A stretch of DNA of 55,342 nt, from positions 1 through 55,342 of IMG/VR virus record IMGVR_UViG_3300009149_000039, one strand, 5' to 3'. Source of the DNA: a virus. Its lineage: Duplodnaviria; Caudoviricetes. Positions 44,579 through 55,342 of this stretch are shown here, piece after piece; positions within the stretch are counted from its first letter, which is position 1, and each line of letters begins with the position of its first letter. The notes under the pieces are model-generated. The model searched no databases, was not told the origin of the DNA, and worked only from the letters and a program-made list of their open reading frames with translations. Made by a program: the position numbers and the translations under genes.

Positions 44579-44679
44579 TTTAGATATTAATATCTTTTCC
44601 CTAAATATTTTATATTTATATACACTAACAAATTTTATTTTTTTCCTCTTTTATAGTAAAAATAAAATATAATATGGCT

Positions 44680-44709
44680 AAACCCGCAACATATGTTGTG
44701 GGTTTTTTT
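44680..44709 (+). terminator. Intrinsic terminator downstream of clp
   Basis: aaacccgcaac-atat-gttgtgggttttttt. Confidence 0.7.
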
Positions 44710-44754
44710 ATCGCTTATTTTGAATTGTCAATTATTTTTAATATATTTACTAAT

Positions 44755-45099
44755 ATGGGAACACAATCAAAGATAATAACAGATGTAGATGATGTCAAAA
44801 CATTTCTAACAATAGACGCGAATAAATCATATTCTGATTTCCAAACTTTTTATCAAGAAAATAAAGATACTATATATAAAGGTATAATATCATTATATGA
44901 ACAATTTGGTAGAACTAAAAATCAAAATTTGAAAATAGTTGTTAAATCTATAATTGTTGATTACAAATGGGACGCAAATTTAATATTTGAAAAAAGTGAC
45001 ACAAAAGCTCTTATGACATTCATATTACCATATTATGAAAATAATGAAGAATTTGAAACATGTGCTCATATTATGAAAATATACAAAAAATTACAATAG
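44755..45099 (+). CDS. Hypothetical protein
   Basis: Probable start MGTQSK (the longer track start lies in the terminator). Confidence 0.6.
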   Translation: MGTQSKIITDVDDVKTFLTIDANKSYSDFQTFYQENKDTIYKGIISLYEQFGRTKNQNLKIVVKSIIVDYKWDANLIFEKSDTKALMTFILPYYENNEEFETCAHIMKIYKKLQ

Positions 45100-45537
45100 T
45101 TCACTTGAACTATCCCCAATATTACTGTCAGTAGCACTTTCCTTAGCAGAATCACTTGAATTAAATTGATACCCTTCATACTCGGTTTCATAATACGATT
45201 CACCATAACCACCACCATAACCACCGCCACCATAACCACCACGATAACCACTACCCCTTGATGAGAATTTATCGACAGAATCAGCCCCCATACCAATGGC
45301 GGTTATAATCATTACCGCATCAACAAGAAAATCGGCTGGAATGAAATTAGGATAAAAACTATTTGCTAACATCGCACCACATAAAAATACTGAACCAACA
45401 AAAGCAATAACGGGTTTTATTGATGTTTCACCCCTTTCATCCTCAAATAAATTAATTATCCAGGTTTTAAATGTAACATTGTCGTTTTCCGTTCCACGCA
45501 CGACATATCTTTGTCTTTGTTTAACTGTGCTTTCCAT
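45091..45537 (-). CDS. Two-TM membrane protein with Gly-Tyr-rich tail (holin-like?)
   Basis: Two hydrophobic helices, GGYGGGGYGGGYG; TATTTATA upstream. Confidence 0.6.
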   Translation of the reverse strand: MESTVKQRQRYVVRGTENDNVTFKTWIINLFEDERGETSIKPVIAFVGSVFLCGAMLANSFYPNFIPADFLVDAVMIITAIGMGADSVDKFSSRGSGYRGGYGGGGYGGGYGESYYETEYEGYQFNSSDSAKESATDSNIGDSSSELL

Positions 45538-45711
45538 AAAATCACTTTTTATTATAAATATTTCGTTGTTAATTTACATATTTTTAATGAAATAGTGTAT
45601 AGATATGGGGAAAATTTTATAGTAACTTTCCCGTAAACCCACTTTTTTATTGTTAGGGATTACACAAGAAACGGTTATTAATAAAAAAAAACAAACTTTT
45701 TTTCGTTTTTT

Positions 45712-45743
45712 CTTGGCAGTTATAATATTTATACGTATATTTG
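45712..45743 (+). promoter_or_regulatory. Bacteroidota-type promoter of tRNA array 1
   Basis: CTTG 45712-45715, N20, TATATTTG 45736-45743. Confidence 0.7.
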
Positions 45744-45777
45744 CAAAAGTTATTTAAAAAAGATAAAATAAAATTCA

Positions 45778-45879
45778 ATGAGACCAACAGTACATATAGA
45801 AATTTCGATGGCGTGTTCAAAGTGGACAGATGAGCGTGATTTTGCCCTGTGCCGAGGTTTTGAAAAAGAATTTATATGA
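45778..45879 (+). CDS. Leader peptide 1 (putative attenuator uORF), MRPTVHIEISMACSKWTDERDFALCRGFEKEFI
   Basis: 33 codons between promoter and terminator; contains the antiterminator strand ccgaggttttga. Confidence 0.7.
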   Translation: MRPTVHIEISMACSKWTDERDFALCRGFEKEFI

Positions 45880-45904
45880 TAATATAAAAATTCGCATATT
45901 AGTC

Positions 45905-45938
45905 AAAACCTCGGAACAAAATTCCGGGGTTTTTTTTT
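45905..45938 (+). terminator. Attenuator terminator 1
   Basis: aaaacctcggaa-caaaa-ttccggggtttt plus U-run, located upstream of the first tRNA. Confidence 0.85.
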
Positions 45939-45953
45939 GTTCTTTAAAATAAT

Positions 45954-46027
45954 GGGACCATAGCTGAGCCCGGTTTTAGCACTGCTTTTGCAAGGCAGGG
46001 ACGGGGGTTCGAATCCCCCTGGCTCCA
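45954..46027 (+). tRNA. tRNA-Ala(TGC)
   Basis: ctgct-ttTGCaa-ggcag; G3:U70; GTTCGAATC. Confidence 0.85.
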
Positions 46028-46158
46028 CAAAATAGGTAAATAGATAATATCTACCAAAGAATTATCAGATTACCGTGAGTTGTTAGGTACTTTTGTAAAG
46101 TTAACTTAACAAAAATGTCCAACAACTTACAAAGCGATCTTTGACATCTTGGTCTTTT

Positions 46159-46236
46159 CGGTAAGTATCCCCCCTGCCTGATACGCAGGAGCGAGGTAAC
46201 TGGTTGAAAATGTGGGTTCGAATCCCACCTTACCGA
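46159..46236 (+). tRNA. Atypical tRNA-Ile(GAT)-like, no D arm, long variable region
   Basis: cggtaag/cttaccg acceptor, cctgc-ctGATac-gcagg, gtggg-ttcgaat-cccac. Confidence 0.55.
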
Positions 46237-46326
46237 CATATGGTGATGTAGCTCAGTAGACTGAAAAAAAATATTAGATTTCAGTTTTTATATGTTTTTT
46301 TAGTATTTATATATAAAATATATATT

Positions 46327-46752
46327 ATGAAAATATGTACAAAATGTAAGAATGAAAAAAACGAAAGTGAATTTTTTTTTAAGAATAAACAAAAAGGTAT
46401 TTTACATTCTAATTGTAAAGATTGTAAACGTGAAATAGATAGACGAAGTTATCACGAAAACAGAAATAATAGAAAAGATAAAATTAGAAAACGTTCTTAT
46501 GATGAAGTAAAAAGAGTTAGAGAATATTATATAGAATATAAGAAAAAACAAAAATGTAATAATTGTGGTGATGATAGATGGTATGTTTTAGATTTTCATC
46601 ATATTGAAAATAAGAAACACACAATAAGTTTTTTAGGAAAGAGGGGGAATATGAAAAAATTAAAAAAAGAACTTACTAAATGTGTACCTTTATGTGCGAA
46701 TTGTCATAGAGAATTACATTATTTAGAACATAACGGAGTGTTGGCAGATTAG
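46327..46752 (+). CDS. HNH homing endonuclease
   Basis: CTKC..CKDC zinc ribbon; LDFHH...KCVPLCANCHRELH. Confidence 0.85.
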   Translation: MKICTKCKNEKNESEFFFKNKQKGILHSNCKDCKREIDRRSYHENRNNRKDKIRKRSYDEVKRVREYYIEYKKKQKCNNCGDDRWYVLDFHHIENKKHTISFLGKRGNMKKLKKELTKCVPLCANCHRELHYLEHNGVLAD

Positions 46753-46807
46753 GTAATTGCGTTGGTCTGAAAAACCAAAGGAACTGGCTCGATACCAGTA
46801 CACTCCA
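46735..46807 (+). tRNA. tRNA-Phe(GAA)
   Basis: ttggt-ctGAAaa-accaa; ggagtgt/acactcc. Confidence 0.8.
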
Positions 46808-46812
46808 CAAAT

Positions 46813-46888
46813 AATTCCGTAGCTCAGTTGGTAGAGCATTAGATTTTTAATCTAAGGGTCGTGGGATCGTGCCCCACCGGGATTACCA
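46813..46888 (+). tRNA. tRNA-Lys(TTT)
   Basis: ttaga-ttTTTaa-tctaa; encoded ACCA. Confidence 0.85.
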
Positions 46889-46891
46889 AAT

Positions 46892-46973
46892 GCACCCGTG
46901 ACCGAGCGGAGCGAAAGCGTCAGGCACCACTCTTTTAAAGTGGGTTACATAGGTTCGAATCCTATCGGGTGCA
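46892..46973 (+). tRNA. tRNA-Lys(TTT) with D-loop insertion
   Basis: ccact-ctTTTaa-agtgg; gcacccg/cgggtgc. Confidence 0.75.
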
Positions 46974-47037
46974 CATTATAATCGGAAGGTTATAATCATA
47001 TATAAAGAGTAAGATGCATATGAAATTTATATATGTT

Positions 47038-47110
47038 AGCGGTAAGGTGTTGTGGGCGAGCATCCCCCCGTGCGAGGGGGTGGCTGTAGGTTCAAATCCT
47101 GCTACCGCTG
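47038..47110 (+). tRNA. tRNA-like, ambiguous anticodon (GCG or TGC)
   Basis: agcggta/taccgct acceptor, T arm gtagg-ttcaaat-cctgc; loop cgtgcga. Confidence 0.5.
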
Positions 47111-47240
47111 CAAAAATAGTTACTAGGTTAGCATATAATCGTATAATACCCGTTTATATGCTACTGGGGTAACATAAGATATTATAATCGGAAGGTTATA
47201 ATCAACATCAAATAATAATTGTACAATAAAATTGATGTTG

Positions 47241-47313
47241 TACGATGTGGGGGAGGGGTTACCTCGCCGCCAGCGAAAGGGCGGAGGCACAAGTTCGAAT
47301 CTTGTCATCGTAA
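47241..47313 (+). tRNA. tRNA-like with 8-nt non-canonical anticodon loop
   Basis: tacgatg/catcgta; ccgcc-agcgaaag-ggcgg; acaag-ttcgaat-cttgt. Confidence 0.5.
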
Positions 47314-47504
47314 CTATTCGAACACGAAGTGAAAACTGATATAAAAGTTTAATCTAAAGTGTACGGAAAATTTAATTATAACAATAGCAAAGGCGAAAAA
47401 AACCGTGAGCAGAGGAAGGGTCTGACAGGTAATTAAATTGGAACTACATAAGTAAATTAAATGAGTAATTGATGTTAGTAGTTAAGTTAGTAGACATATC
47501 GTTT

Positions 47505-47588
47505 GCACTTGTAGTTCAATGGGTAGAACATGGGAACGCATTTGCTATTCTTAATCCCAAGATATGAGTTCGAATCTCATCTGGTGAA
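47505..47588 (+). tRNA. tRNA-like with 19-nt anticodon loop
   Basis: Normal D and T arms; tggga-N19-tccca; weak acceptor stem. Confidence 0.45.
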
Positions 47589-47609
47589 TAACAAACGATA
47601 TGAATTTTC

Positions 47610-47681
47610 GTCTTCGTAGTGTAACCAGGTTAGCACGCAACCCTGTCACGGTTGTAGAGGGGTTCGAATCCCACGGGGACG
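47610..47681 (+). tRNA. tRNA-Asp(GTC)
   Basis: caacc-ctGTCac-ggttg. Confidence 0.8.
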
Positions 47682-47711
47682 GCTTTATTAAAAATAGAAT
47701 AATATAACATC

Positions 47712-47781
47712 CCTCCAGTAGTTCAATGGTAGAATATCTGATTGTGGTTCAGAAGATCAGGGTTCGAGTCCCGCTGGTTGA
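47712..47781 (+). tRNA. tRNA-His(GTG), weak acceptor stem
   Basis: tctga-ttGTGgt-tcaga. Confidence 0.6.
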
Positions 47782-47915
47782 CAAATGTGATTAGTGAGTC
47801 GGGGTATGAAGACACGCCCAGCAGAAACGCAAGCAAACGAAAGCAACTGATTAGTGTTTATCAGTATTTTTAAATTATACCTTTAAAAAAGAATAAAAAT
47901 TTAAACTTTAATAAA

Positions 47916-48170
47916 ATGGAATACATTAAAAAAGAAGACATTAAAGTCGGTTGGTATATCGGTTTTTGTCGCAACGCAAATTTAGCATTTTGGGATGGAA
48001 AAGAATTTATGCATATTAGAAATAAGTTCTTTTATAGATGGGATACCATAGAGCATTTCGATGATGTAAAAGAAAAAAAATTAGATGGTTTTGTCCCATT
48101 AAAAAAATTGGAATATGAAGAACCAGACTATAAAGTAATTGAAAAAGTAAAACAAGAAATAGGTTATTAA
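47916..48170 (+). CDS. Hypothetical protein
   Basis: 84-aa ORF within tRNA array. Confidence 0.65.
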   Translation: MEYIKKEDIKVGWYIGFCRNANLAFWDGKEFMHIRNKFFYRWDTIEHFDDVKEKKLDGFVPLKKLEYEEPDYKVIEKVKQEIGY

Positions 48171-48213
48171 GCTGACAAAAATTTAAAAAAGTAAACATAT
48201 AAGCTGACAAAAC

Positions 48214-48286
48214 GCTCCTGTCGTCTAATGGTTCAGGATAGAGGACCTTCAATCCCCAGATGCGAGTTCGATTCTCGTCAGGAGTA
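48214..48286 (+). tRNA. tRNA-Glu(TTC)
   Basis: Glu-type D arm tcgtctaatggttcaggat; loop ccTTCaa. Confidence 0.75.
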
Positions 48287-48304
48287 CAAAGAATTTTTTA
48301 TTAT

Positions 48305-48374
48305 TGCGGGGAGCTCTGGGTAAGCCACGACTCTCATAAGGTCGGAAAGAATAGTTCGATTCTATTCCCCGCAA
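48305..48374 (+). tRNA. tRNA-Met(CAT)
   Basis: cgact-ctCATaa-ggtcg; short D arm. Confidence 0.65.
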
Positions 48375-48383
48375 CATAATTTT

Positions 48384-48457
48384 GGGCCTGTAGCTCAGTT
48401 GGTCAGAGCAGCACACTCATAATGTGAAGGTCGTTGGTTCGAACCCATCCTGGCCCA
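48384..48457 (+). tRNA. tRNA-Ile2/Met(CAT)
   Basis: gggcctg acceptor, canonical D arm, caca-ctCATaa-tgtg. Confidence 0.8.
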
Positions 48458-48582
48458 CAATTTTTAAAATCCCCCGAGGGGGGGTCGGGGAAATAAAATT
48501 AGGAAACAGTTGTTTTTATTAATGTTTTATGTTATATTATGTCGTAAAAGTAGTAAACATTGTCGACAAAAAAGAAAAAAAT

Positions 48583-49017
48583 ATGAAAAAATTATTATGG
48601 TTAGACGATTTTAGGGACCCATTTGATGAAAAATCAAATTGGTTAGCATATAACTCAATACGAATAGAAAAACCATTCGAAATAATATGGGTTAAAAATT
48701 ATGATGAATTTATAGATTGGATAATTAAAAATGGATTACCATACCAAATAAGTTTTGACCACGATTTGGCGGATGAACATTATAGTCCTGATATGTATAA
48801 AACACCAGATGTATATAATAAACATTATGATGATTTTAGAGAAAAAACAGGTATGGATTGTGCAAAATGGTTAATAAGTTATTGTATAAACAATAATGTA
48901 AGTGTTCCTAAATTTACTGTACATAGTGCGAATCCCGTTGGTGGTGAAAATATTCGAGCACTACTTAGTAACTTTATCCGGCATCATCCGGTAATAAATA
49001 ATAAAAATTCTTGTTGA
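48583..49017 (+). CDS. Cyclic-phosphate-processing receiver-domain protein
   Basis: LWLDDFR, ISFDHDL, TGMDCAKWL, VHSANPVG; probable start MKKLLW. Confidence 0.75.
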   Translation: MKKLLWLDDFRDPFDEKSNWLAYNSIRIEKPFEIIWVKNYDEFIDWIIKNGLPYQISFDHDLADEHYSPDMYKTPDVYNKHYDDFREKTGMDCAKWLISYCINNNVSVPKFTVHSANPVGGENIRALLSNFIRHHPVINNKNSC

Positions 49018-49144
49018 TAATCAACCGATTATAAGTTTATCCGGTAATATCTGGCAAAAAGTGTCCATGCAAATGGTATTTTTTATCCATTTTAGGGTAG
49101 CTTGGACATAATGTCCAAGCAAATGTCCAAGCTAACAAAATATA

Positions 49145-49384
49145 TTGAAATTTCTATCGCTCCACGGAGAGGAAATTCGGGACATCATCGCTTAAGGTAG
49201 AAGATAATATCATTAAAAATGCACGATATCATTTATTATGATATTAAGCAAAAATTGTGATATTATCGTTTGTACTACCGAGGATGCAACACAAAACAGT
49301 TTAGAGGGTGAGCGACTCTATTATAACGAGGTAGTGGCAAGTAGATAAATGATAGAATAATACAGAATCCCGGTTATATTTCAA
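49145..49384 (+). ncRNA. rnpB: RNase P RNA, minimal (~240 nt)
   Basis: GAGGAAATTCGGGA and ACAGAATCCCGGTTA (P4 signature), AGATAAATGAT, P1 ttgaaat/atttcaa, P2 ttctatc/gatagaa. Confidence 0.85.
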
Positions 49385-49393
49385 TTTTAATAC

Positions 49394-49465
49394 AGGTGTA
49401 TAGTTCAACGGCTAGAATAATGGTCTCCAAAACCATAGATGGGGGTTCGAATCCCTCTACTCCTG
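49394..49465 (+). tRNA. tRNA-Trp(CCA)
   Basis: atggt-ctCCAaa-accat. Confidence 0.85.
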
Positions 49466-49477
49466 CAAAAAATAAAT

Positions 49478-49549
49478 GGCCTTATAGTTCAATGGATAGA
49501 ACACAACACTACGGATGTTAAGATGAGAGTTCGAGTCTTTCTAGGGTCA
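49478..49549 (+). tRNA. tRNA-Arg(ACG)
   Basis: aaca-ctACGga-tgtt. Confidence 0.85.
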
Positions 49550-49557
49550 CTATATAT

Positions 49558-49635
49558 TGGGATTTTGGGTAGGGACAGTATCATGAACTGTTTTGGGTAG
49601 CACCCCCCGTTGAAGTTCGATTCTTCTAATCCCAA
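49558..49635 (+). tRNA. Atypical tRNA-like (CAT), reduced D arm, long variable arm
   Basis: tgggatt/aatccca; cagt-atCATga-actg; gaag-ttcgatt-cttc. Confidence 0.4.
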
Positions 49636-49741
49636 CAGTTAATCGGAATAATTCCGATTATGTGGTTCTTATATCGCAACTTAGTAGTAAAGGTGATATT
49701 AAGATCAAAGATGGGGGAAAACTAATGAAACCCCCATACCA

Positions 49742-49813
49742 GGTCCTGTGTCCGATTGGCTAAGGTGGCGGACTGCAAATCCGTTTATATGAGTTCGAAT
49801 CTCATCGGGACCT
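49742..49813 (+). tRNA. tRNA-Cys(GCA)
   Basis: gcgga-ctGCAaa-tccgt; U73. Confidence 0.9.
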
Positions 49814-49819
49814 CAATAT

Positions 49820-49893
49820 GGTGATTGTAGCTGAATTGGTAAAGCACCTGACTGTGAATCAGAAGATTGTCGGTTCGACCCCGATCTTTCACC
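49820..49893 (+). tRNA. tRNA-His(GTG)
   Basis: G-1, C73, ctga-ctGTGaa-tcag. Confidence 0.85.
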
Positions 49894-49901
49894 CAAATAA
49901 T

Positions 49902-49989
49902 ACACTCGCTCATTTGGCGTGACCTGCGGGCTCCAACCCCGTTCTTTTGAGTAGCAATATAGGTGAGGGTTCGAATCCCTACGAGTGTG
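49902..49989 (+). tRNA. Atypical tRNA-Trp(CCA) with long variable region
   Basis: acactcg/cgagtgt; gcggg-ctCCAac-cccgt; aggg-ttcgaat-ccct. Confidence 0.5.
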
Positions 49990-50078
49990 CAACATAACAT
50001 AGGGTGTAAACTTGTGGAGAAGCAAGTCTTCGGAAAATACGTACCGTTGAAGCATTTGATTCTGATGCAGCCCTAAAT

Positions 50079-50150
50079 CCCGCCCTGGCTTAATGGTAGA
50101 GCGTCACTCTCATAAGGTGAAGTGTTCCAGTTCGAATCTGGAGGGCGGGA
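50079..50150 (+). tRNA. tRNA-Met(CAT)
   Basis: tcact-ctCATaa-ggtga; cccgccc/gggcggg. Confidence 0.8.
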
Positions 50151-50225
50151 CAAAAAAAATAAATAAAATGTCGAACATAATGATTTTTTGTTTATATTTG
50201 CATTTGAATTTTAAAGTATATTATA

Positions 50226-51095
50226 ATGTTAAAAATTGATGAAGGTTTTGATGAAATAATTAAATGTAATTATGAATTATATTCTGTAAAATTATTTGAA
50301 TTAAAAGAATTAGCAAAATCTTGGTATAAAGATATTAATTTTAATGATTTTGATAATAGATTTATTGGTGATAACGATTCGAATAAACTAATTCAAATGA
50401 AAAAAACCGGTATTTTATGTAATTACTTTTTTGCGTATAAAGAAGATAATATTTATCATCTTCTTGATGGGTTTAATCGGTTATTTACTGATTATGGTCA
50501 TATTAATGTTGACACAACTGTTTATTTGAAAGTTTTAGTAGGGGAGTTAAAAGATAATCACTTAATGTCTATTATGTTTATGCTTAATACTTGGAAATTA
50601 CAAACACAAGGAGTTCATTCATTTAGAATTACGAATTTTTTAGATAGGGGGTTTAGATTATTTTTATATAGTAAATTTGATATAAAACTATATGATTACA
50701 CTAACATTGATTATTACGATAGAATAAGAAACGATAAAGATATAGATGTTTTAGAAAAATATTTTATACGTGAAAGAGAATATAGTGATATGTTTAAATA
50801 TGAATTAGATGATTTAGCTATTCTTTTTTACAATAAAAACATAATAAATGATTTTAAAGAAATAATAAAATCAAATGATTATTTAACTGAACCTTTTAAC
50901 AATTATAATAAATTTCTTTATGGATTTATAATGTGGATATCACATAAAAGAATAAAAGGAGATAATTCTGAATATAAATTTCAAACATATTTAAATAAAT
51001 TATATCAGGATAAAAAATTCTTTAAAAAATTACAAGGAATGTCAGGAACAGACAGCACTAGAAAAAATATTTATAAATTCTTTCGTAATTTATAA
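50226..51095 (+). CDS. Hypothetical protein (ParB-like LLDGFNR motif)
   Basis: 289-aa ORF with its own TATATTTG promoter at 50193-50200. Confidence 0.65.
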   Translation: MLKIDEGFDEIIKCNYELYSVKLFELKELAKSWYKDINFNDFDNRFIGDNDSNKLIQMKKTGILCNYFFAYKEDNIYHLLDGFNRLFTDYGHINVDTTVYLKVLVGELKDNHLMSIMFMLNTWKLQTQGVHSFRITNFLDRGFRLFLYSKFDIKLYDYTNIDYYDRIRNDKDIDVLEKYFIREREYSDMFKYELDDLAILFYNKNIINDFKEIIKSNDYLTEPFNNYNKFLYGFIMWISHKRIKGDNSEYKFQTYLNKLYQDKKFFKKLQGMSGTDSTRKNIYKFFRNL

Positions 51096-51132
51096 AAATT
51101 ATGTATATTTGCAAAGTTCTTTAAAATAAAAA

Positions 51133-51201
51133 GCGGGAATAGCTCAGAGAAAGAGCTGGAGGTCACCTCTGTAAGCGAAGGTTCAAGTCCTTCTTCCCGC
51201 T
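51133..51201 (+). tRNA. tRNA-Gly-like body with aberrant anticodon arm centred on TCA
   Basis: gcgggaa/ttcccgc, U73; gagg-TCA-cctc; promoter TATATTTG at 51104-51111. Confidence 0.5.
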
Positions 51202-51206
51202 CACAT

Positions 51207-51297
51207 CGCGGGATGGAGCAGTCAGGTCAGCTCGCTAGGCTCATAACCTAGATTCGGTATCAATCCGCTTGCGAGGGTTCAAATCCCTCTCCCGCAA
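51207..51297 (+). tRNA. Initiator-like tRNA-fMet(CAT) with long variable arm
   Basis: C1:A72 mismatch, ggagcag..gctcg D arm, ctagg-ctCATaa-cctag. Confidence 0.75.
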
Positions 51298-51386
51298 CAA
51301 AATAAATTGGTATTATTTATATATATTTATATAAGTAATTGTAAAATTAAGGGGTATTTATACCATTATTTATATTTACTTATATT

Positions 51387-51578
51387 ATGTGGGAGTATTA
51401 CAAAACACTTATTTTATATGAAGACCATAAAGATTTAACTGACCAGTTAAATAAATTGGGTAGTGACAATTGGGAGATTATATATTATAAGGAGCTTCCA
51501 AAACAACAATTTGCATTACGTTCCCAAGTTGAAATTTTATTAAAAAGACCGAATATCATTGATTTAAGTGATAATTGA
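51387..51578 (+). CDS. DUF4177-like small protein
   Basis: MWEYYK...LNKLGSDNWEII...LLKRP. Confidence 0.6.
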   Translation: MWEYYKTLILYEDHKDLTDQLNKLGSDNWEIIYYKELPKQQFALRSQVEILLKRPNIIDLSDN

Positions 51579-51610
51579 AAATATCATTGATTTAAGTGAT
51601 ATTATAATAT

Positions 51611-51696
51611 GGAAGGCACCCGGCCGGATGAGGAGCTTGTCTTGAAAACAGGTAGCGGTTTAAAACCCGTTTGGGGTTCGAGTCCCTAGCCTTCCG
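51611..51696 (+). tRNA. tRNA-Ser(TGA)
   Basis: cttgt-ctTGAaa-acagg; long V arm; G73. Confidence 0.85.
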
Positions 51697-51736
51697 CAAG
51701 AAAAATGAAAATAAATGAAAAAAATATTAAAAAAAG

Positions 51737-51767
51737 TTTGGTAATTCAAAAAGTTTTTGTATATTTG
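51737..51767 (+). promoter_or_regulatory. Bacteroidota-type promoter of tRNA array 2
   Basis: TTTG 51737-51740, N19, TATATTTG 51760-51767. Confidence 0.8.
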
Positions 51768-51785
51768 CAATAATTATTAATAGAG

Positions 51786-51884
51786 ATGAAAAATTTATCG
51801 TACATACAGCCGAGTTCATATAGACCATATAATGGTACAGGAACAGTTACGCTTTTAAATGATGCGATAGGTTCGGATTCTTGA
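51786..51884 (+). CDS. Leader peptide 2 (putative attenuator uORF), MKNLSYIQPSSYRPYNGTGTVTLLNDAIGSDS
   Basis: 32 codons between promoter and terminator; same layout as leader 1. Confidence 0.7.
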   Translation: MKNLSYIQPSSYRPYNGTGTVTLLNDAIGSDS

Positions 51885-51910
51885 CAATAGAAATTATAGA
51901 AATTTTAATT

Positions 51911-51947
51911 AAAAGACCCGGACTTAAAAAAAAGTTCGGGTTTTTTT
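51911..51947 (+). terminator. Attenuator terminator 2
   Basis: aaaagacccggactt-aaaaaa-aagttcgggttttttt. Confidence 0.85.
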
Positions 51948-52138
51948 GTTTCTATTAGATAATAAAATAATAAGGCAACAACCTTATAATGATACACTAT
52001 AAGGCAACAACCTTATGATAAGGGTTCTTTGACATACTGTGAAAAAAAAAATAATAACACAATAGGTGGAATAATTTATGCCAAAATTTTATTTCACCAT
52101 ACGGTCCTGTGGCGGACGTTGGAATACGCAACAGACTT

Positions 52139-53095
52139 TAATAAAATACCGTAAAATTCTAATAATCGAACCAGAGGGGGTGTTTTTATGTGTTTTAAGT
52201 TATATTTATACTATATGAAACATAAATATAATAAAGAACAAGTACAAATAGCAGTAAAAAATAGTTTTTCTATTGCCCAAGTTTGTAGAGAATTAAAAAT
52301 ACGACCATCTGGAGGGAATTATGACACCGTAAAAAAATTGTTCAAAAAATGGGATATTAATATTGATCATTTTACTGGACAAGGATGGAATGTTGGTTTA
52401 AAATTTAAACCTTATAAAAAATACGAACTAAAAGATGTATTAATAAAAAACTCTCCATATAGGTCGACATATTCACTTAAAAAACGATTAATAAAGGAGG
52501 GGGTTAAAAAAAGAATGTGTGAAAACTGTTTTAGAGAAACGTGGATTAATAACCCAATCAATTTAGAACTTCATCACATAAATGGTGATAACACCGATCA
52601 TAGACTAGTAAATTTATTACTACTATGTCCAAATTGTCACTCATATACCCCAAATTTTAGAAAAGGTAAGAGTGCTCTTTCTGAAAAGAAAGAAGTAGAA
52701 TACCGTAAATTCAAGGAAACCTTAACACATAATGGTGATGGCAATCTTGAGCCAAGCTTTTTAACAAAAGAAGGTGCAGAGACTAGACACGGTAAATCTA
52801 AATCTAAAGATGAACATATTTGTTTAAATTGTAAAAAAATATTTTATAATAGAAATAAAGAAAGAAAATATTGTTCAACCAAATGTTATAGAGAACATAT
52901 AAAAATTAATATTCCTAAAGTACCTGAGTTAATAAAAAAATTTAAAGAATTAAAAACATTTACAAAGGTTGGGGAATTTTACTCTGTAAGTGATAACGCC
53001 GTAAAAAAATGGTGTAAATCATATGGAATTTTAGACATGATTAAGGAATAGTCCAGACCACAAACAATAATAGTAATGAAAATTATAGTGGTACG
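52139..53095 (+). ncRNA. Group I intron (tRNA-Leu-type core) with endonuclease ORF
   Basis: AAATTCAAGGAAACC, GGCAATCTTGAGCCAAG, GAAGGTGCAGAGACTAGA, AAGGAATAGTCC; terminal G. Confidence 0.9.
52188..53051 (+). CDS. Intron-encoded HNH homing endonuclease
   Basis: LELHHINGDNTDHRLVNLLLLCPNCHS; C-terminal CLNC..YCSTKC and HTH; start may be MKHKY at 52215. Confidence 0.85.
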   Translation: MCFKLYLYYMKHKYNKEQVQIAVKNSFSIAQVCRELKIRPSGGNYDTVKKLFKKWDINIDHFTGQGWNVGLKFKPYKKYELKDVLIKNSPYRSTYSLKKRLIKEGVKKRMCENCFRETWINNPINLELHHINGDNTDHRLVNLLLLCPNCHSYTPNFRKGKSALSEKKEVEYRKFKETLTHNGDGNLEPSFLTKEGAETRHGKSKSKDEHICLNCKKIFYNRNKERKYCSTKCYREHIKINIPKVPELIKKFKELKTFTKVGEFYSVSDNAVKKWCKSYGILDMIKE

Positions 53096-53150
53096 AAACC
53101 CTGTTTTTCGCTGGTTCGATTCCAGTCAGGATCACATTATTATAAAAGAA

Positions 53151-53234
53151 AAGTTGCCTTTGTGGTTACCACTACAATCCGCAGTAGTACGGTATTTAGG
53201 GTCATGACGTACCCACACAAAGGGCGGACAACTT
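53151..53234 (+). ncRNA. Unknown structured RNA (three-way junction, possible pseudoknot)
   Basis: cctttgtg/cacaaagg; tacc-actac/gtagt-ggta; gggt/accc. Confidence 0.45.
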
Positions 53235-53316
53235 AAAAAAATATTGAGTTAAACAATCTGAAACTTTATTAGGTGTATAATGGTGTATATAAAATGGATG
53301 ACTGTTTAACTTTTAT

Positions 53317-53389
53317 GGCCTCATAGCATAATGGATAGTGCGACAGGTTTCTACCCTGTTACGTGGGGGTTCGAGTCCCTCTGGGGTTA
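53317..53389 (+). tRNA. tRNA-Arg(TCT)
   Basis: acagg-ttTCTac-cctgt. Confidence 0.85.
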
Positions 53390-53401
53390 CTATTTTAATA
53401 A

Positions 53402-53478
53402 CTGGGTGTTCCACAGATGGCTATATGGCCTCGCCTTGGACGCGAGTGTTTTCGGGGGTTCGAATCCCTCCACCCAGA
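53402..53478 (+). tRNA. tRNA-Pro(TGG)
   Basis: ctcgc-ctTGGac-gcgag. Confidence 0.75.
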
Positions 53479-53490
53479 CAAAACAATAAT

Positions 53491-53563
53491 CGAGTAGTGG
53501 GAAAGTAGGTAATCCGCTACATTTGGGATGTAGAAAACGCAGGTTCGATCCCTGCCTACTCGA
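53491..53563 (+). tRNA. tRNA-Pro(TGG)
   Basis: ctaca-ttTGGga-tgtag. Confidence 0.85.
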
Positions 53564-53575
53564 CAAAATTAATAC

Positions 53576-53674
53576 GGAGGGATGCATTTTCGCGAAAAGT
53601 GTGTTGGAAAGCAATGTTAGCTGTACACTAACTGTCTTAATAGACTATTGTAGGTTCGACCCCTGCTCCCTCCA
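53576..53674 (+). tRNA. tRNA-Tyr(GTA) with D-arm hairpin insertion
   Basis: gttag-ctGTAca-ctaac; ggaggga/tccctcc; V arm. Confidence 0.7.
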
Positions 53675-53680
53675 CTAAAT

Positions 53681-53753
53681 GGTTCTCTGGCTGAATGGTT
53701 TAAGCACTTGACTGTTAATCAAGACTATGTGGGTTCGAATCCCACGGGGACCT
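53681..53753 (+). tRNA. tRNA-Asn(GTT)
   Basis: cttga-ctGTTaa-tcaag. Confidence 0.85.
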
Positions 53754-53758
53754 CAAAT

Positions 53759-53829
53759 TGACTGGTAGCTTAATGTAAAGGGTTCGGCTGTTAACCGAGA
53801 AGATGTGAGTTCGAGTCTCACCCAGTCAG
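53759..53829 (+). tRNA. tRNA-Asn(GTT)
   Basis: ttcgg-ctGTTaa-ccgag. Confidence 0.8.
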
Positions 53830-53944
53830 CAAAAAGTTATTAAAGATACGCGGGTAGACTTGGTTCGAGTCCAAGCACAGAAGGTACGAGCCATGGTAAT
53901 TGTACTGAAGTGAAGTGTAAGGGTTGTGCACACCGGCGGTAATA

Positions 53945-54019
53945 GCCCGTATGGCGGACGTTGGCCTACGCGATGGTCTTAGAAACCATTTTTCGAGAGT
54001 TCGATTCTCTCTATGGGCA
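53945..54019 (+). tRNA. tRNA-Leu(TAG) lacking long variable arm
   Basis: atggt-ctTAGaa-accat; variable loop ttttc. Confidence 0.8.
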
Positions 54020-54138
54020 CAAAGGTTAGTAGTTGGATTCTTAACCATTTGAAGGCGAAGTTTCCTTGGTGAAATTGAAAGGCCGTAGCCACCTGTGGTG
54101 GGTGGTGAACACCATGATAAAGTAGCCGAAAACAATCT

Positions 54139-54206
54139 GGGATAGCTCAGGACAGGGGCCGGGTCTGTAAAACCCTCGCCGGGGAGTTCGAGTCTCTCCT
54201 ATCCCA
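54139..54206 (+). tRNA. Atypical compact tRNA-Tyr(GTA)-like
   Basis: gggatag/ctatccc; gggt-ctGTAaa-accc; minimal D arm. Confidence 0.5.
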
Positions 54207-54232
54207 CAATTATTAACTTAAAATTAAAAAAA

Positions 54233-54406
54233 ATGAGACACAAATTTACACCACCTAATGAAAAGGTACAGGCATTTATTGATAATAATAAAATTATCAA
54301 AATGGAAACAAGTTTTCCGAAAGATCATAAAATCCCCAATATGAAAAGATGGAGATTCCAAACAGAAGACAAAGAATGGCATCAATTCGACCAAAGAATT
54401 GATTAA
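54233..54406 (+). CDS. Hypothetical 57-aa protein
   Basis: MRHKFTPPNEKVQAF...QRID; too short for the ORF track. Confidence 0.55.
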   Translation: MRHKFTPPNEKVQAFIDNNKIIKMETSFPKDHKIPNMKRWRFQTEDKEWHQFDQRID

Positions 54407-54492
54407 TGTTGCATTAAAATTATTGCGTTATACCCTATCGGGTAGAATATGAATGAATACTCACTCATTTATACCTGATAGGGTATAAAAAT

Positions 54493-54566
54493 GGTGGTGT
54501 AGCTTAGTCAGGTAGAGCAGGATTCTTATATGATCAAGGTCGGTGGTTCGAATCCACCCATCACTA
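54493..54566 (+). tRNA. tRNA-Ile(TAT)
   Basis: gatt-ctTATat-gatc; canonical D and T arms. Confidence 0.8.
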
Positions 54567-54627
54567 CGGCACTTTTCAAATTTTAGGTTATATTTATATA
54601 TATAACAATACACTAAAATTCGAAAAA

Positions 54628-55137
54628 ATGAAAAAATGTAAACAATGTGAAAAGGAATTAAAAAATCAAAAAAATATATTTTGTTCTAGTAGTTGTGCTG
54701 CAAAATATAATAATCCACGATATCACAAAAAAAAAGATAGATTTTGTTTACAATGTGAAGAAAAATTATTAAAAGAAAAAAAATACCATAACAAATTTTG
54801 TGACTCTAAATGTTCTAATCTTTATAAGTTTGAAAATGTCACATTAAAAAGATTTAATGACGGCAATGTATCAAAAAATACAACATTAAGAAAAATATTA
54901 ATAAACTTATATGGTAATTATTGTTTTGAGTGTAAACAACCTAATAACTGGAATGAAAAGGAATTAATATTAGAGGTTGACCACATAGATGGAAATTCAG
55001 ATAATAATCTACCAAAAAACCTTAGATTATTATGTCCTAATTGTCATTCACAAATGCCAACATCAAAATGTAAACATAAAAAAAAGAACACTAAACGAAA
55101 TAATTATTTACGAAAATTTAAACAGTATGAAACTTAA
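54628..55137 (+). CDS. HNH endonuclease with zinc-ribbon repeats
   Basis: CKQC..FCSSSC-type unit x2; LEVDHIDGNSDNNLPKNLRLLCPNCHS. Confidence 0.9.
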   Translation: MKKCKQCEKELKNQKNIFCSSSCAAKYNNPRYHKKKDRFCLQCEEKLLKEKKYHNKFCDSKCSNLYKFENVTLKRFNDGNVSKNTTLRKILINLYGNYCFECKQPNNWNEKELILEVDHIDGNSDNNLPKNLRLLCPNCHSQMPTSKCKHKKKNTKRNNYLRKFKQYET

Positions 55138-55139
55138 AC

Positions 55140-55225
55140 ACCCCTATGGTGTAATTGGATAAACATCTCACTCTTACAAAGTGAAGACGAGAAGTATAAT
55201 CTTGGTTCGAGTCCAAGTGGGGGTA
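55140..55225 (+). tRNA. tRNA-Val(TAC) with extended variable region
   Basis: tcact-ctTACaa-agtga; accccta/tgggggt. Confidence 0.75.
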
Positions 55226-55342
55226 CAACATTAAATTGGCTACGATTATTATTACTTCTAGGTTAATTCGCCCCTTAAAAACGGGCGATAATGGTTCAAA
55301 TCCACTATGTAATCAATTCCCAATTTATTTTTGCGAAAGTCG

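What the first reader, a model, noticed from the sequence alone, without database searches (positions are those of the whole stretch)
45712..55342. Candidate new system: codon-sampling leader-peptide attenuators that gate phage tRNA arrays, each leader matched to its own tRNA set
Seen: both long tRNA arrays begin with a promoter, a 32-33 codon uORF, an intrinsic terminator and then the tRNAs. Leader 1 encodes His, Trp, Cys x2, Phe x3, Glu x4, Asp x2, Lys x2, Ala x2, an internal Met and Arg CGT, and has no Asn, Tyr or Gln. Array 1 carries Ala, Ile, Phe, Lys, Asp, His, Glu, Met, Trp, Arg(ACG) and Cys. Leader 2 encodes Asn x3, Tyr x3, Pro x2, Leu x3 (two TTA), Ile ATA x2, Arg AGA and Val, and has no His, Trp, Cys, Phe or Glu. 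Array 2 carries Leu(TAA/TAG), Arg(TCT), Pro, Tyr, Asn, Ile(TAT) and Val. The match is imperfect: leader 1 also has Pro, Thr, Val and Ser, and leader 2 has Lys, Asp and Ala. Known: trp/his/pheST-type attenuation senses one or a few amino acids through codon runs. Inference: here a non-repetitive leader samples many codons, so stalling on any depleted or cleaved tRNA (starvation, host anticodon nucleases) would turn on the array that supplies the replacement. I am not aware of this being described for phage tRNA clusters.
Basis: partly seen in the sequence, partly recalled or inferred. Interest (0 to 1): 0.95.

Follow-up and report, generated by a model that had tools for sequence, protein, structure and literature searches.

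The report
Leader-peptide switches gating phage tRNA genes
In this giant phage of Bacteroidota each block of tRNA genes sits behind a tiny test gene, spelled in the codons those tRNAs read and wired to a switchable transcription stop, so the phage probably makes a tRNA set only when ribosomes decode those codons slowly.

Summary
Both units exist as described: promoter-like site, 33- and 32-codon ORFs (45778-45879, 51786-51884), the two strongest intrinsic terminators of the region, then tRNA genes.

- The 3' end of each ORF carries a strand complementary to the terminator's 5' arm, an antiterminator. It covaries with that arm.
- Both leaders are conserved, in-frame ORFs at the same sites in related IMG/VR phages.
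- In a set of 73 units chosen without regard to peptide content, leaders match their own tRNA arrays better than other arrays: 0 of 50000 permutations reached the observed match. The match also holds for codon boxes and within families.
- The conserved box after the terminator, GTTCTTTGACAT, sits where boxA lies in Bacteroidota rRNA operons.

No 1:2 pairing exists, so untranslated leaders should read through.

Nothing is shown by experiment, and no RNA run was listed. Nine literature searches found no description. This scan has noted the same design before on other DNA. I confirmed it in the cultured Caulobacter phage phiCbK.

The parts
45713..45743 (+). Promoter-like site 1: TTGGCA, 17 nt, TATATT(TG). 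The -7 box TATATTTG is at 45736-45743.
   Evidence: That this is the Bacteroidota consensus is recalled. The same TTTG..TAnnTTTG layout stands before leaders in relatives.
45778..45879 (+). Leader ORF 1, 33 codons plus TGA. The sensing part is about codons 2-21 (RPTVHIEISMACSKWTDERD).
   Evidence: It belongs to a family of 24 distinct leaders with the H..CSKW motif. All indels are in frame and codon position 3 is the most variable.
45851..45862 (+). Antiterminator strand (region 2) inside ORF 1. It pairs with 45903/45905-45914.
   Evidence: (folds)
45905..45938 (+). Intrinsic terminator 1: 12-bp stem, loop CAAAA, T-run.
   Evidence: 99.2% of cells are paired over 31 family members, and 3 pairs show compensatory changes.
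45954..46028 (+). tRNA-Ala(UGC), the first gene behind terminator 1.
   Evidence: It holds the same position in L007, L036 and L047.
46137..46152 (+). boxA-like box (ATCTTTGACATCTTGG, 1 mismatch to the 11-mer).
   Evidence: For the box's identity.
46159..50151 (+). tRNA genes behind unit 1: Ile(GAU, no D arm), Phe, Lys, Ala-like, Lys(ctt), Asp, His, Glu, Met x2, Trp, Arg(acg), Gln, Cys, His, Met. Interspersed are degenerate tRNA-like genes, small ORFs including an HNH-like one, and an RNase P-like RNA.
51104..51127 (+). Internal promoter-like TATATTTG plus boxA-like GTTCTTTAAAAT directly before tRNA-Val(cac) at 51133. This is an ungated entry into the last tRNAs of 'array 1' (Val, Met-like, Ser(tga)).
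51737..51767 (+). Promoter-like site 2 (TTTGGTA ... TATATTTG).
51786..51884 (+). Leader ORF 2, 32 codons plus TGA. The sensing part is about codons 2-24 (KNLSYIQPSSYRPYNGTGTVTLL).
   Evidence: Five distinct family members stand before tRNA-Leu(taa) in relatives.
51868..51882 (+). Antiterminator strand 2 (AGGTTCGGATTCTT). It mimics the terminator's 3' arm and abuts the stop codon.
   Evidence: fold of the truncated RNA. GTTCGGATT is kept in all family members.
51911..51950 (+). Intrinsic terminator 2: 15-bp stem, then a T-run.
52024..52040 (+). boxA-like box (GTTCTTTGACAT exact).
52103..53133 (+). Split tRNA gene. The 5' half starts at 52103 and the 3' half ends near 53133. An insertion of about 950 nt carries the HNH ORF 52188-53051. 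Leu(UAA) is likely by synteny, but the junction is not resolved.
   Evidence: (joined halves give a cloverleaf starting at 52103 for many junctions)
53317..55226 (+). tRNA genes behind unit 2: Arg(tct), Pro x2, Asn x2, Leu(tag), Tyr(gta), Ile(tat), Val(tac). The array is cut by the contig end.

Best explanation
Each unit is a ribosome-mediated transcription attenuator that controls a block of phage tRNA genes.

Proposed sequence of events.
1. A host-type promoter starts an RNA whose first ~100 nt are a 32-33-codon leader ORF.
2. The last part of the ORF (region 2) can pair with the 5' arm of the terminator that follows about 25 nt after the stop codon.
3. If the ribosome translates smoothly to the stop codon, it covers region 2. 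The terminator then forms and transcription ends before the tRNAs.
4. If the ribosome lags or stalls on any of the roughly 20 sampled codons, region 2 is free and pairs with the terminator arm. RNA polymerase then runs on.
5. The polymerase next transcribes a boxA-type box. That box probably recruits the host Nus (rRNA-type) antitermination factors for the long untranslated array.

Because the sampled codons are largely those read by the tRNAs behind the switch, each block would be under negative feedback from its own products. It would be induced when those tRNAs are scarce, for example through a mismatch between phage codon use and the host pool, host shut-off, or anticodon nucleases.

Shown: the anatomy, conservation, covariation and codon match. 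Inferred: translation of the leader, the switch in vivo, the Nus step and the physiological trigger.
For: Anatomy in the window.

Antiterminator.
- In 73 units the best partner of the terminator's 5' arm lies at the ORF's 3' end. It ends within -12..+20 nt of the stop codon in 69 of 73 (median 6).
- 36 of 73 units beat all but at most 2 of 200 shuffles.
- Own-arm duplex energy is -10.81 kcal/mol against -7.41 for arms of other families, reached by 0 of 50000 permutations. With the first 43 nt of the ORF as control the values are -3.33 and -2.95.
- In the window's family the terminator is 99.2% paired. The antiterminator is 68.4% paired against 23-56% for slid controls, with 16 doubly changed cells (0 of 500 shuffles).

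ORF.
- An ATG ORF of at least 22 codons is present in 73 of 73 units. The reverse complement has one in 26 of 73 and shuffles in 316 of 1460.
- All indels are in frame, and column entropy is 0.30, 0.60 and 0.74 bits for codon positions 1, 2 and 3.

Match between leader and array.
- Over 19 family representatives, sensing residues served by the own array are 231 of 394, against 2591 of 7092 for other arrays. The ORF tail scores 74 of 178.
- Array amino-acid types present in the own leader are 0.876, against 0.565 for other leaders. 0 of 50000 permutations reached this.
- Leu/Arg/Ser codon boxes match in 30 of 44 cases, against 19.6 expected.
- In the window's family (24 distinct leaders) 391 of 477 sensing residues are served and 267 of 280 array types are represented. 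Val in the leader tracks tRNA-Val (9/3/0/12).
- In the window, own arrays serve 30 of 43 residues and swapped arrays 14 of 43.

Independent leader types that match their arrays: D/E/V/L/A/W, H/Q/R/P, Q/N/H/W/C/S and L/P/F/K/V/Y.

The box. 41 of 81 genome hits lie just after the spacer tRNA-Ile and tRNA-Ala of rRNA operons, mostly in Bacteroidota. A second boxA set upstream of 23S is described in PMC10250234 (passages).

The same design is present in phiCbK.
Against: No experiment exists and no RNA run was listed, so translation and switching are unproven.

The match is imperfect.
- Leader 1 codons AGA, CCA, ACA x2 and GTA have no strict reader in array 1 (14 of 20 are read). Leader 2 has only 9 of 23 read by the tRNAs seen before the contig ends.
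- Array 1 holds Gln(ttg) but leader 1 has no Gln.
- Over all families only 59% of sensing residues are served by the first 10 tRNAs.

Not all tRNAs are gated.
- A promoter-like site with a boxA-like box stands directly before tRNA-Val at 51133.
- Of the 16 ClpB-anchored loci with tRNAs (out of 80), L020 and L037 show arrays without a short leader.

Weak or absent antiterminators. Three units have duplexes no better than shuffles (L120, L127 and L150, z between -0.4 and 0), and about half have z above -3.

Statistical limits.
- The permutation tests do not fully remove shared ancestry between families.
- The 73-unit set was selected by terminator tail plus box, so it says nothing about how common the design is.
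- The synonymous excess is modest: 13 synonymous against 20 nonsynonymous variants.

That the box binds NusB/S10 is inferred from its position in rRNA operons and from its recalled likeness to boxA.
Confidence: 0.75

Rival explanations
1. The switch is real, but it reports amino-acid supply (charging of tRNAs) or general translation capacity. On this reading it works like classical biosynthetic attenuators or a global 'translation is failing' alarm, not as a gauge of the amount of the particular tRNAs encoded downstream.
For: The anatomy is that of classical attenuators. With no 1:2 pairing (median z +0.3), any failure to translate, including failed initiation, should give read-through. The Anabaena trn array is induced by impaired translation in general (PMC8421152, abstract).
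Against: A general alarm needs no codon match, yet leaders match their own arrays at the amino-acid level (0 of 50000 permutations). They also match at codon-box level (30 of 44 against 19.6 expected), and they track gains and losses of single tRNAs within a family. More tRNA does not cure amino-acid starvation.
Confidence: 0.12
2. The small ORFs are ordinary small-protein genes with their own promoter and terminator, or simple insulators that stop upstream transcription. The tRNAs are transcribed from other promoters, and the likeness of composition is a by-product.
For: The H..CSKW and NL..IQ motifs are conserved as peptides. Promoter-like sites do occur inside the array. Some arrays lack leaders.
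Against: At least 19 unrelated peptide families share one architecture, and their composition follows the array behind them. The ORF's 3' end covaries with the terminator arm. The stop codon keeps a fixed distance to region 2 in 69 of 73 units. The box behind the terminator has no partner -7 element at promoter spacing (read by eye), and in bacteria it lies inside rRNA transcripts.
Confidence: 0.05
3. The leader RNA senses tRNAs directly, without translation, as a T-box-like or other riboswitch.
For: The logic (tRNA status decides between antiterminator and terminator) is that of T-boxes.
Against: No Rfam family other than tRNA reaches its threshold in the region, and the only hit on the leader is noise (L10_leader, E 0.92). 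The open frame, in-frame indels and third-position variation point to translation. Ten or more different tRNAs would have to be read by about 100 nt of RNA.
Confidence: 0.03

Closest known systems
Leader-peptide transcription attenuators of amino-acid operons (trpL, hisL, pheL, leuL; multivalent thr and ilvGMEDA leaders). Textbook knowledge, recalled; pheL is also listed in PMC3082878 (search listing).
   Same: A short translated ORF in the 5' leader, an intrinsic terminator before the regulated genes, and an alternative antiterminator. The ribosome's position decides which forms. The regulatory codons are cognate to what the operon supplies.
   Different: The regulated genes are tRNAs, not enzymes. 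The leader samples about 8-14 different amino acids once to three times each, not in runs. No region 1 (anti-antiterminator) is detectable, so an untranslated leader should read through and not super-attenuate. A boxA follows the terminator. Several such units, each with its own codon set, sit in one phage.
pheST (pheM leader) attenuator of E. coli phenylalanyl-tRNA synthetase (recalled)
   Same: Attenuation by a leader peptide controls a component of the translation apparatus in response to decoding of cognate codons.
   Different: It uses one amino acid, regulates a synthetase and not tRNA genes, and is a cellular system.
T-box riboswitches (Rfam RF00230; recalled)
   Same: tRNA status switches an antiterminator/terminator pair in front of genes that serve that tRNA.
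   Different: T-boxes bind uncharged tRNA directly and need no translation. No T-box hit was found here.
rrn antitermination system: boxA with NusB/NusE, NusA, NusG and SuhB (PMC4807359, passages; PMC10250234, passages)
   Same: The box GTTCTTTGACAT(n)TTGG behind each terminator is the sequence that lies after the spacer tRNA-Ile/Ala and before 23S in Bacteroidota rRNA operons (41 of 81 hits). It heads a long untranslated RNA operon.
   Different: Here it is on a phage, heads tRNA arrays, and is placed after a regulated terminator. Binding of Nus factors was not tested.
Inducible tRNA L-array (trn operon) of Anabaena PCC 7120 (PMC8421152, abstract; TrcR repressor paper PMC10272220, search listing only)
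   Same: A supernumerary, horizontally spread tRNA array stays silent and is induced when translation is impaired.
   Different: By the listing, control there is through a transcriptional repressor. No leader peptide or attenuator is reported in the abstract.

Membership tests
Leader-peptide (ribosome-mediated) transcription attenuator | Short ORF with a start codon in the 5' leader, downstream of a promoter | tested here: met
   The ORFs are 33 and 32 codons. Promoter-like TATATTTG lies 42 and 26 nt upstream. An ORF of at least 22 codons is present in 73 of 73 related units, against 316 of 1460 shuffles.
Leader-peptide (ribosome-mediated) transcription attenuator | Intrinsic terminator between the ORF and the regulated genes | tested here: met
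   These are the two strongest terminator-like sites of the region. 99.2% of cells are paired across 31 family members.
Leader-peptide (ribosome-mediated) transcription attenuator | Mutually exclusive antiterminator whose 5' strand lies within reach of the translating or terminating ribosome | tested here: met
   Folds. Position relative to the stop codon: 69 of 73. Covariation.
Leader-peptide (ribosome-mediated) transcription attenuator | Regulatory codons cognate to the product of the regulated genes | tested here: met
   Here the codons are many different ones, not runs.
Leader-peptide (ribosome-mediated) transcription attenuator | Region 1 that sequesters region 2 when the leader is not translated (the four-segment trp type) | tested here: not met
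   The median z of the best 1:2 duplex against shuffles is +0.3 in 19 families. The design is therefore three-segment and is not a member of the trp four-segment subtype.
Leader-peptide (ribosome-mediated) transcription attenuator | Read-through depends on translation of the leader and on tRNA supply | not testable with these tools
   No RNA run was listed. This needs reporters, Term-seq and Ribo-seq.
rrn-type boxA antitermination site | Conserved boxA sequence inside rRNA operon transcripts (leader and 16S-23S spacer) | tested here: met
   The pattern GTTCTTTGACATNTTGG gave 81 instances in the 80 genome loci held. 41 of them have tRNA-Ile and tRNA-Ala within 600 nt upstream, and 41 have the 16S 3' end within 1200 nt upstream (39 have both). 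10 more lack upstream sequence. Likeness to the E. coli and B. subtilis boxA is recalled.
rrn-type boxA antitermination site | Binds NusB-NusE and makes RNA polymerase termination-resistant | not testable with these tools
   Inference only.
T-box riboswitch | Match to the T-box covariance model (specifier loop, T-box bulge) | tested here: not met
   No RF00230 hit at E up to 1 in 44000-55342.

The most novel reading that the evidence does not exclude
Large phages run several independent decoding-speed gauges. Each cassette (promoter, codon-sampling leader, three-segment switch, boxA, tRNA block) would be a self-contained homeostat for one group of tRNAs. Its leader would be re-spelled whenever a tRNA is gained or lost. 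The cassettes would act as sensors and counter-measures against loss of host tRNAs (codon mismatch, host shut-off, anticodon nucleases), and they would hand the polymerase to the host's rRNA antitermination machinery once the decision is made. The design appears in phages of unrelated hosts (Bacteroidota jumbo phages and Caulobacter phiCbK), so it may be a general rule for how phage tRNA arrays are controlled.
Probability: 0.5. Interest if true: 0.92.

Novelty: new variant of a known kind. Interest (0 to 1): 0.88.

Why it matters
Why phages carry tRNA arrays, and when they use them, is an open question. Regulation of these arrays is essentially undescribed. A leader that samples the very codons its array reads would be the first known feedback control of tRNA genes by decoding speed. 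It would extend attenuation from single amino acids to a many-codon gauge.

It would also give a direct, testable link between phage tRNAs and host tRNA-targeting defences. Each unit makes sharp predictions: a start-codon knock-out should give constitutive read-through, and synonymous recoding should change induction. The design is present in a cultured phage of a model bacterium, phiCbK on Caulobacter, so it can be tested now.

Leader sequences could also be used to predict the tRNA content of incomplete phage contigs, and to read which codons a phage finds limiting in its host.

Tried and rejected
Close relatives among deposited phages. blastn of both units gave only tRNA or HNH fragments. 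tblastn with a family-1 leader gave no match. The nearest records by the ClpB-like protein are uncultured 630-640 kb phages at 53-56% identity.

The window's own genome. It is just this contig, so nothing lies beyond 55342.

The box as a promoter. I rejected this reading for three reasons. No -7 element sits at promoter spacing (read by eye). The box is almost confined to tRNA regions in the loci. In bacteria it lies inside rRNA operons.

First guess that the box precedes 16S. No 27F primer site was found within 1500 nt downstream in 0 of 81 instances. The box proved to lie in the 16S-23S spacer instead.

A trp-like region 1. Not found.

Expression. No RNA holder was listed, and read laying was not used.

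A TnaC-like arrest peptide, suggested by the conserved ..SKW.. motif. I did not pursue it. The resemblance is recalled only, and the motif residues are all among the array's amino acids.

Leader choice rule. My first rule, 'longest ORF', picked a wrong frame in L104 and L129. I replaced it with the composition-blind rule 'earliest ATG ORF of 18-50 codons' before any statistics.

Rows dropped.
- 8 of 81 motif instances had no tRNA or no ORF: L097, L098, L108, L113, L128, L132, L139, L161.
- Family representatives with fewer than 4 tRNAs were dropped, leaving 19 of 23 families at the 0.30 threshold.
- In one search, F1 units with fewer than 8 tRNAs and duplicate peptides were dropped.
- In one search, the split tRNA and the doubtful 64-nt 'Phe(aaa)' were left out.

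Antiterminator count. It uses a MAFFT alignment that is out of register for about 10 sequences (the GTCTCGGA subgroup), which lowers the paired share.

Supplements of papers were closed, so tables of the phiCbK paper that might annotate small ORFs were not seen.

Full report
WHAT IS THERE. The last 9.6 kb of the window is one long run of tRNA genes on the + strand. ARAGORN between 45954 and 55314. Rfam adds a D-armless tRNA-Ile(GAU) at 46159-46236 and some weak tRNA-like genes. Small ORFs, including HNH-like ones, lie between them.

All residue and codon counts in the finding are correct. Each ORF is preceded by TATATTTG (45736, 51760) with a TTGGCA/TTTGGTA element upstream. Each is followed about 25 nt later by one of the two strongest terminator-like hairpins of the region (45905-45933 and 51911-51946). 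The region has 12 such sites against 6.2 +/- 2.6 in shuffles.

Corrections to the finding:
- The window does hold a tRNA-Gln (49558).
- The arrays are not two clean units. Further promoter-like boxes lie at 50193 and 51104, and the latter sits directly before tRNA-Val(cac) together with a boxA-like GTTCTTTAAAAT.
- The contig is the whole 'genome' held, so nothing downstream can be read.

THE SWITCH. In leader 1, GCCGAGGTTTTG (45851-45862, codons 25-28) is complementary to the 5' arm of the terminator. The truncated RNA folds into this antiterminator. The full RNA has it as the minimum-energy fold and the terminator as the centroid fold. In leader 2, AGGTTCGGATTCTT (51868-51881) abuts the stop codon, copies the terminator's 3' arm, and pairs with the 5' arm in the truncated RNA.

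RELATIVES. The neighbouring ClpB-like gene (42572-44578) found 563 related IMG/VR stretches, of which 80 were kept. 16 of those 80 have tRNAs in the flank. Leader 1 recurs before the first tRNA (Ala) in L007, L036 and L047 with a conserved H..CSKW core. Leader 2 recurs before tRNA-Leu(taa) in L036 and L031-35.

Other arrays in these phages have other leaders, and each spells its own array:
- MKNLLDILLVA..LLWADED before Asp, Asp, Glu, Glu, Val, Leu, Leu, Ala, Trp.
- ..LLHQRPQGQPP.. before Pro, Arg(acg), His, Gln.
- MRVQLTHNHINRNWQRNCQISNGMSNW before Gln, Gln, Ser(gct), Trp, Asn, His, Cys.
- MNAICNILPLFKSPKVKPLFYLVPKV before Leu, Leu, Tyr, Leu, Val, Pro, Phe.

Two loci, L020 and L037, have arrays without a short leader.

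A SAMPLE CHOSEN BLIND TO PEPTIDE CONTENT. A box, GTTCTTTGACAT, follows the terminators. 73 instances have a short ORF and downstream tRNAs, and 8 have no tRNAs. The leader was taken by a composition-blind rule: the earliest ATG ORF of 18-50 codons ending within 110 nt of the terminator tail.

Results on this sample:
- An ORF of at least 22 codons is present in 73 of 73 units. The reverse complement has one in 26 of 73 and shuffles in 316 of 1460.
- The best partner of the terminator's 5' arm lies at the ORF's 3' end, ending within -12..+20 nt of the stop in 69 of 73 (median 6). The stop lies 19-51 nt (median 25) before the arm. A terminating ribosome would therefore cover region 2 but not the terminator.
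- This pairing covaries. Own arm scores -10.81 kcal/mol against -7.41 for arms of other families, reached by 0 of 50000 permutations. The ORF's first 43 nt give -3.33 and -2.95.
- There is no sign of a region 1 that would sequester region 2 (median z +0.3).

THE CODON MATCH. Peptides were clustered at 30% identity. That gives 19 family representatives with at least 4 tRNAs.
- Residues in the sensing part are those whose stall would leave region 2 free. They are served by the first 10 tRNAs of the own array in 231 of 394 cases, and by other arrays in 2591 of 7092.
- The ORF tail scores 74 of 178, close to background.
- 87.6% of the array's amino-acid types occur in the own leader, against 56.5% in other leaders.
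- 0 of 50000 permutations reach the observed match. Other array definitions and a 45% clustering threshold give 0 of 20000 each.
- Where an array holds only one codon box of Leu, Arg or Ser, leader codons fall in that box in 30 of 44 cases, against 19.6 expected from the phages' own codon use.

THE WINDOW'S OWN FAMILIES. A second scan recovered leader-1 relatives. There are 24 distinct leaders with at least 8 tRNAs.
- 391 of 477 sensing residues are served.
- 267 of 280 array amino-acid types are represented.
- Val in the leader goes with tRNA-Val in the array (9 / 3 / 0 / 12, Fisher 3e-4, not corrected for ancestry). Leaders that lack Asp and Glu go with arrays that lack those tRNAs.
- Over 31 distinct sequences the terminator is 99.2% paired, with 3 doubly changing pairs.
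- The antiterminator, in the window's register on an unfitted alignment, is 68.4% paired against 23-56% when slid. It has 16 doubly changed cells, reached by 0 of 500 shuffles.
- All indels in the conserved ORF part are in frame, and third positions vary most.

Leader 2 has five distinct relatives. In L326 the leader has Thr and Val, and its array continues Val(tac), Gly(gcc), Thr(tgt), Gly(tcc), Gln(ttg), Ser(gct).

In the window itself, own arrays serve 30 of 43 sensing residues and swapped arrays 14 of 43 (p 0.0011). By strict wobble the counts are 23 and 9 of 43.

THE BOX. Most titles name Bacteroidota. Of 81 instances, 41 have tRNA-Ile and tRNA-Ala within 600 nt upstream and 41 have the 16S 3' end within 1200 nt upstream (39 have both). 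That places them in the 16S-23S spacer before 23S. A second boxB-boxA-boxC set is described there for rrn operons (PMC10250234, passages). BoxA recruits NusB/NusE and prevents Rho-dependent termination of untranslated RNA (PMC4807359, passages).

I therefore read the box as the host-type boxA. The idea came from a first-stage note on this window. Its place after the regulated terminator makes sense. The decision is taken first, and the polymerase is then made processive for a multi-kb untranslated array. The box also argues that array transcripts come through the terminator and do not start behind it.

MECHANISM. Smooth translation to the stop codon masks region 2, the terminator forms, and the array stays off. 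A lagging or absent ribosome leaves region 2 free, the antiterminator forms, and the array is transcribed. Because the sampled codons are those the array reads, this is negative feedback on decoding speed. What lowers decoding speed in nature is inference. Candidates are a codon-usage mismatch with the host, host shut-off, or anticodon nucleases.

KNOWN AND NEW. Nine full-text searches found no account of leader-peptide attenuation of tRNA genes. The phiCbK genome paper has no occurrence of 'leader' or 'attenuat'. The closest in print is the translation-stress-inducible tRNA array of Anabaena (PMC8421152, abstract), which by the listing of PMC10272220 is run by a repressor.

This scan's own earlier notes, which are AI notes, report the same design on other genomes. 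I checked one of them. In phiCbK, gp083 is a 45-aa ORF rich in Ser, Leu, Pro and Lys. It is followed by an annotated terminator and then Pro, Pro, Lys, Lys, Leu x3, Ser x2. An ORF part reading MSKTYRQFVRQIQVVRNI.., with a terminator behind it, precedes Phe, Val, Ile, Ile, Val, Gln, Gln.

LIMITS. No expression data exist for this phage. The match is partial. Some tRNAs are not gated. The statistics do not fully remove common descent. The 73-unit set was selected by its terminator tail and box.

Noticed in passing
window 49141-49392 (+): A weak match to bacterial RNase P RNA class A lies inside the tRNA array (45.2 bits, E 1.5e-11, below the gathering score of 100). It spans model positions 1-367 in only about 250 nt. 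It may be a minimal phage-encoded RNase P RNA.
   Followed up: no
window 52103-53133 (+): A tRNA gene is split by an insertion of about 950 nt that carries the HNH ORF 52188-53051. Joined halves give a cloverleaf starting at 52103 for many trial junctions. Rfam gives no group I intron hit at E up to 1. Leu(UAA) is likely by synteny.
   Followed up: partly
window 46159-46236 (+): tRNA-Ile(GAU) has only 4 nt in place of the D arm and a 19-nt insertion in the variable region (Rfam, 38.1 bits). ARAGORN misses it.
   Followed up: partly
window 47241-47314 (+): ARAGORN calls a tRNA with a four-base anticodon (cgaa) and an 8-nt loop. Rfam gives no tRNA hit there at E up to 0.1. It may be a decayed gene or a frameshift-type tRNA.
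   Followed up: no
window 46892-46974, 47038-47111, 49901-49990, 51207-51298: Several tRNA-like genes score weakly or have odd lengths: 28-37 bits in Rfam, Sec-like hits, and a 92-nt 'Met'. The array mixes intact and degenerate or unusual tRNAs.
   Followed up: no
window 46327-46752, 52188-53051, 54628-55137 (+): Three ORFs with Cys-rich and HNH-like motifs are scattered through the tRNA array. They look like homing-endonuclease-like genes. No family search was run on them.
   Followed up: no
L081 7898-7939: In a 236-kb relative, a 13-codon Lys-rich mini-ORF (5 Lys) overlaps the stop of the upstream gene. It is followed by a hairpin without a T-run and stands directly before three tRNA-Lys genes. 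It may be a further, different kind of leader, or chance.
   Followed up: no
L411 (phiCbK, JX100813: 47000-53000): The cultured Caulobacter phage phiCbK shows the same arrangement of ORF, terminator and matching tRNA block at three places. One of the ORFs is annotated as hypothetical protein gp083.
   Followed up: partly
window 2-4282 (both strands): Very long open frames run on both strands of the first 4.3 kb: 1427 aa on the - strand and 1387 aa on the + strand. This suggests highly repetitive coding sequence. I did not examine it.
   Followed up: no
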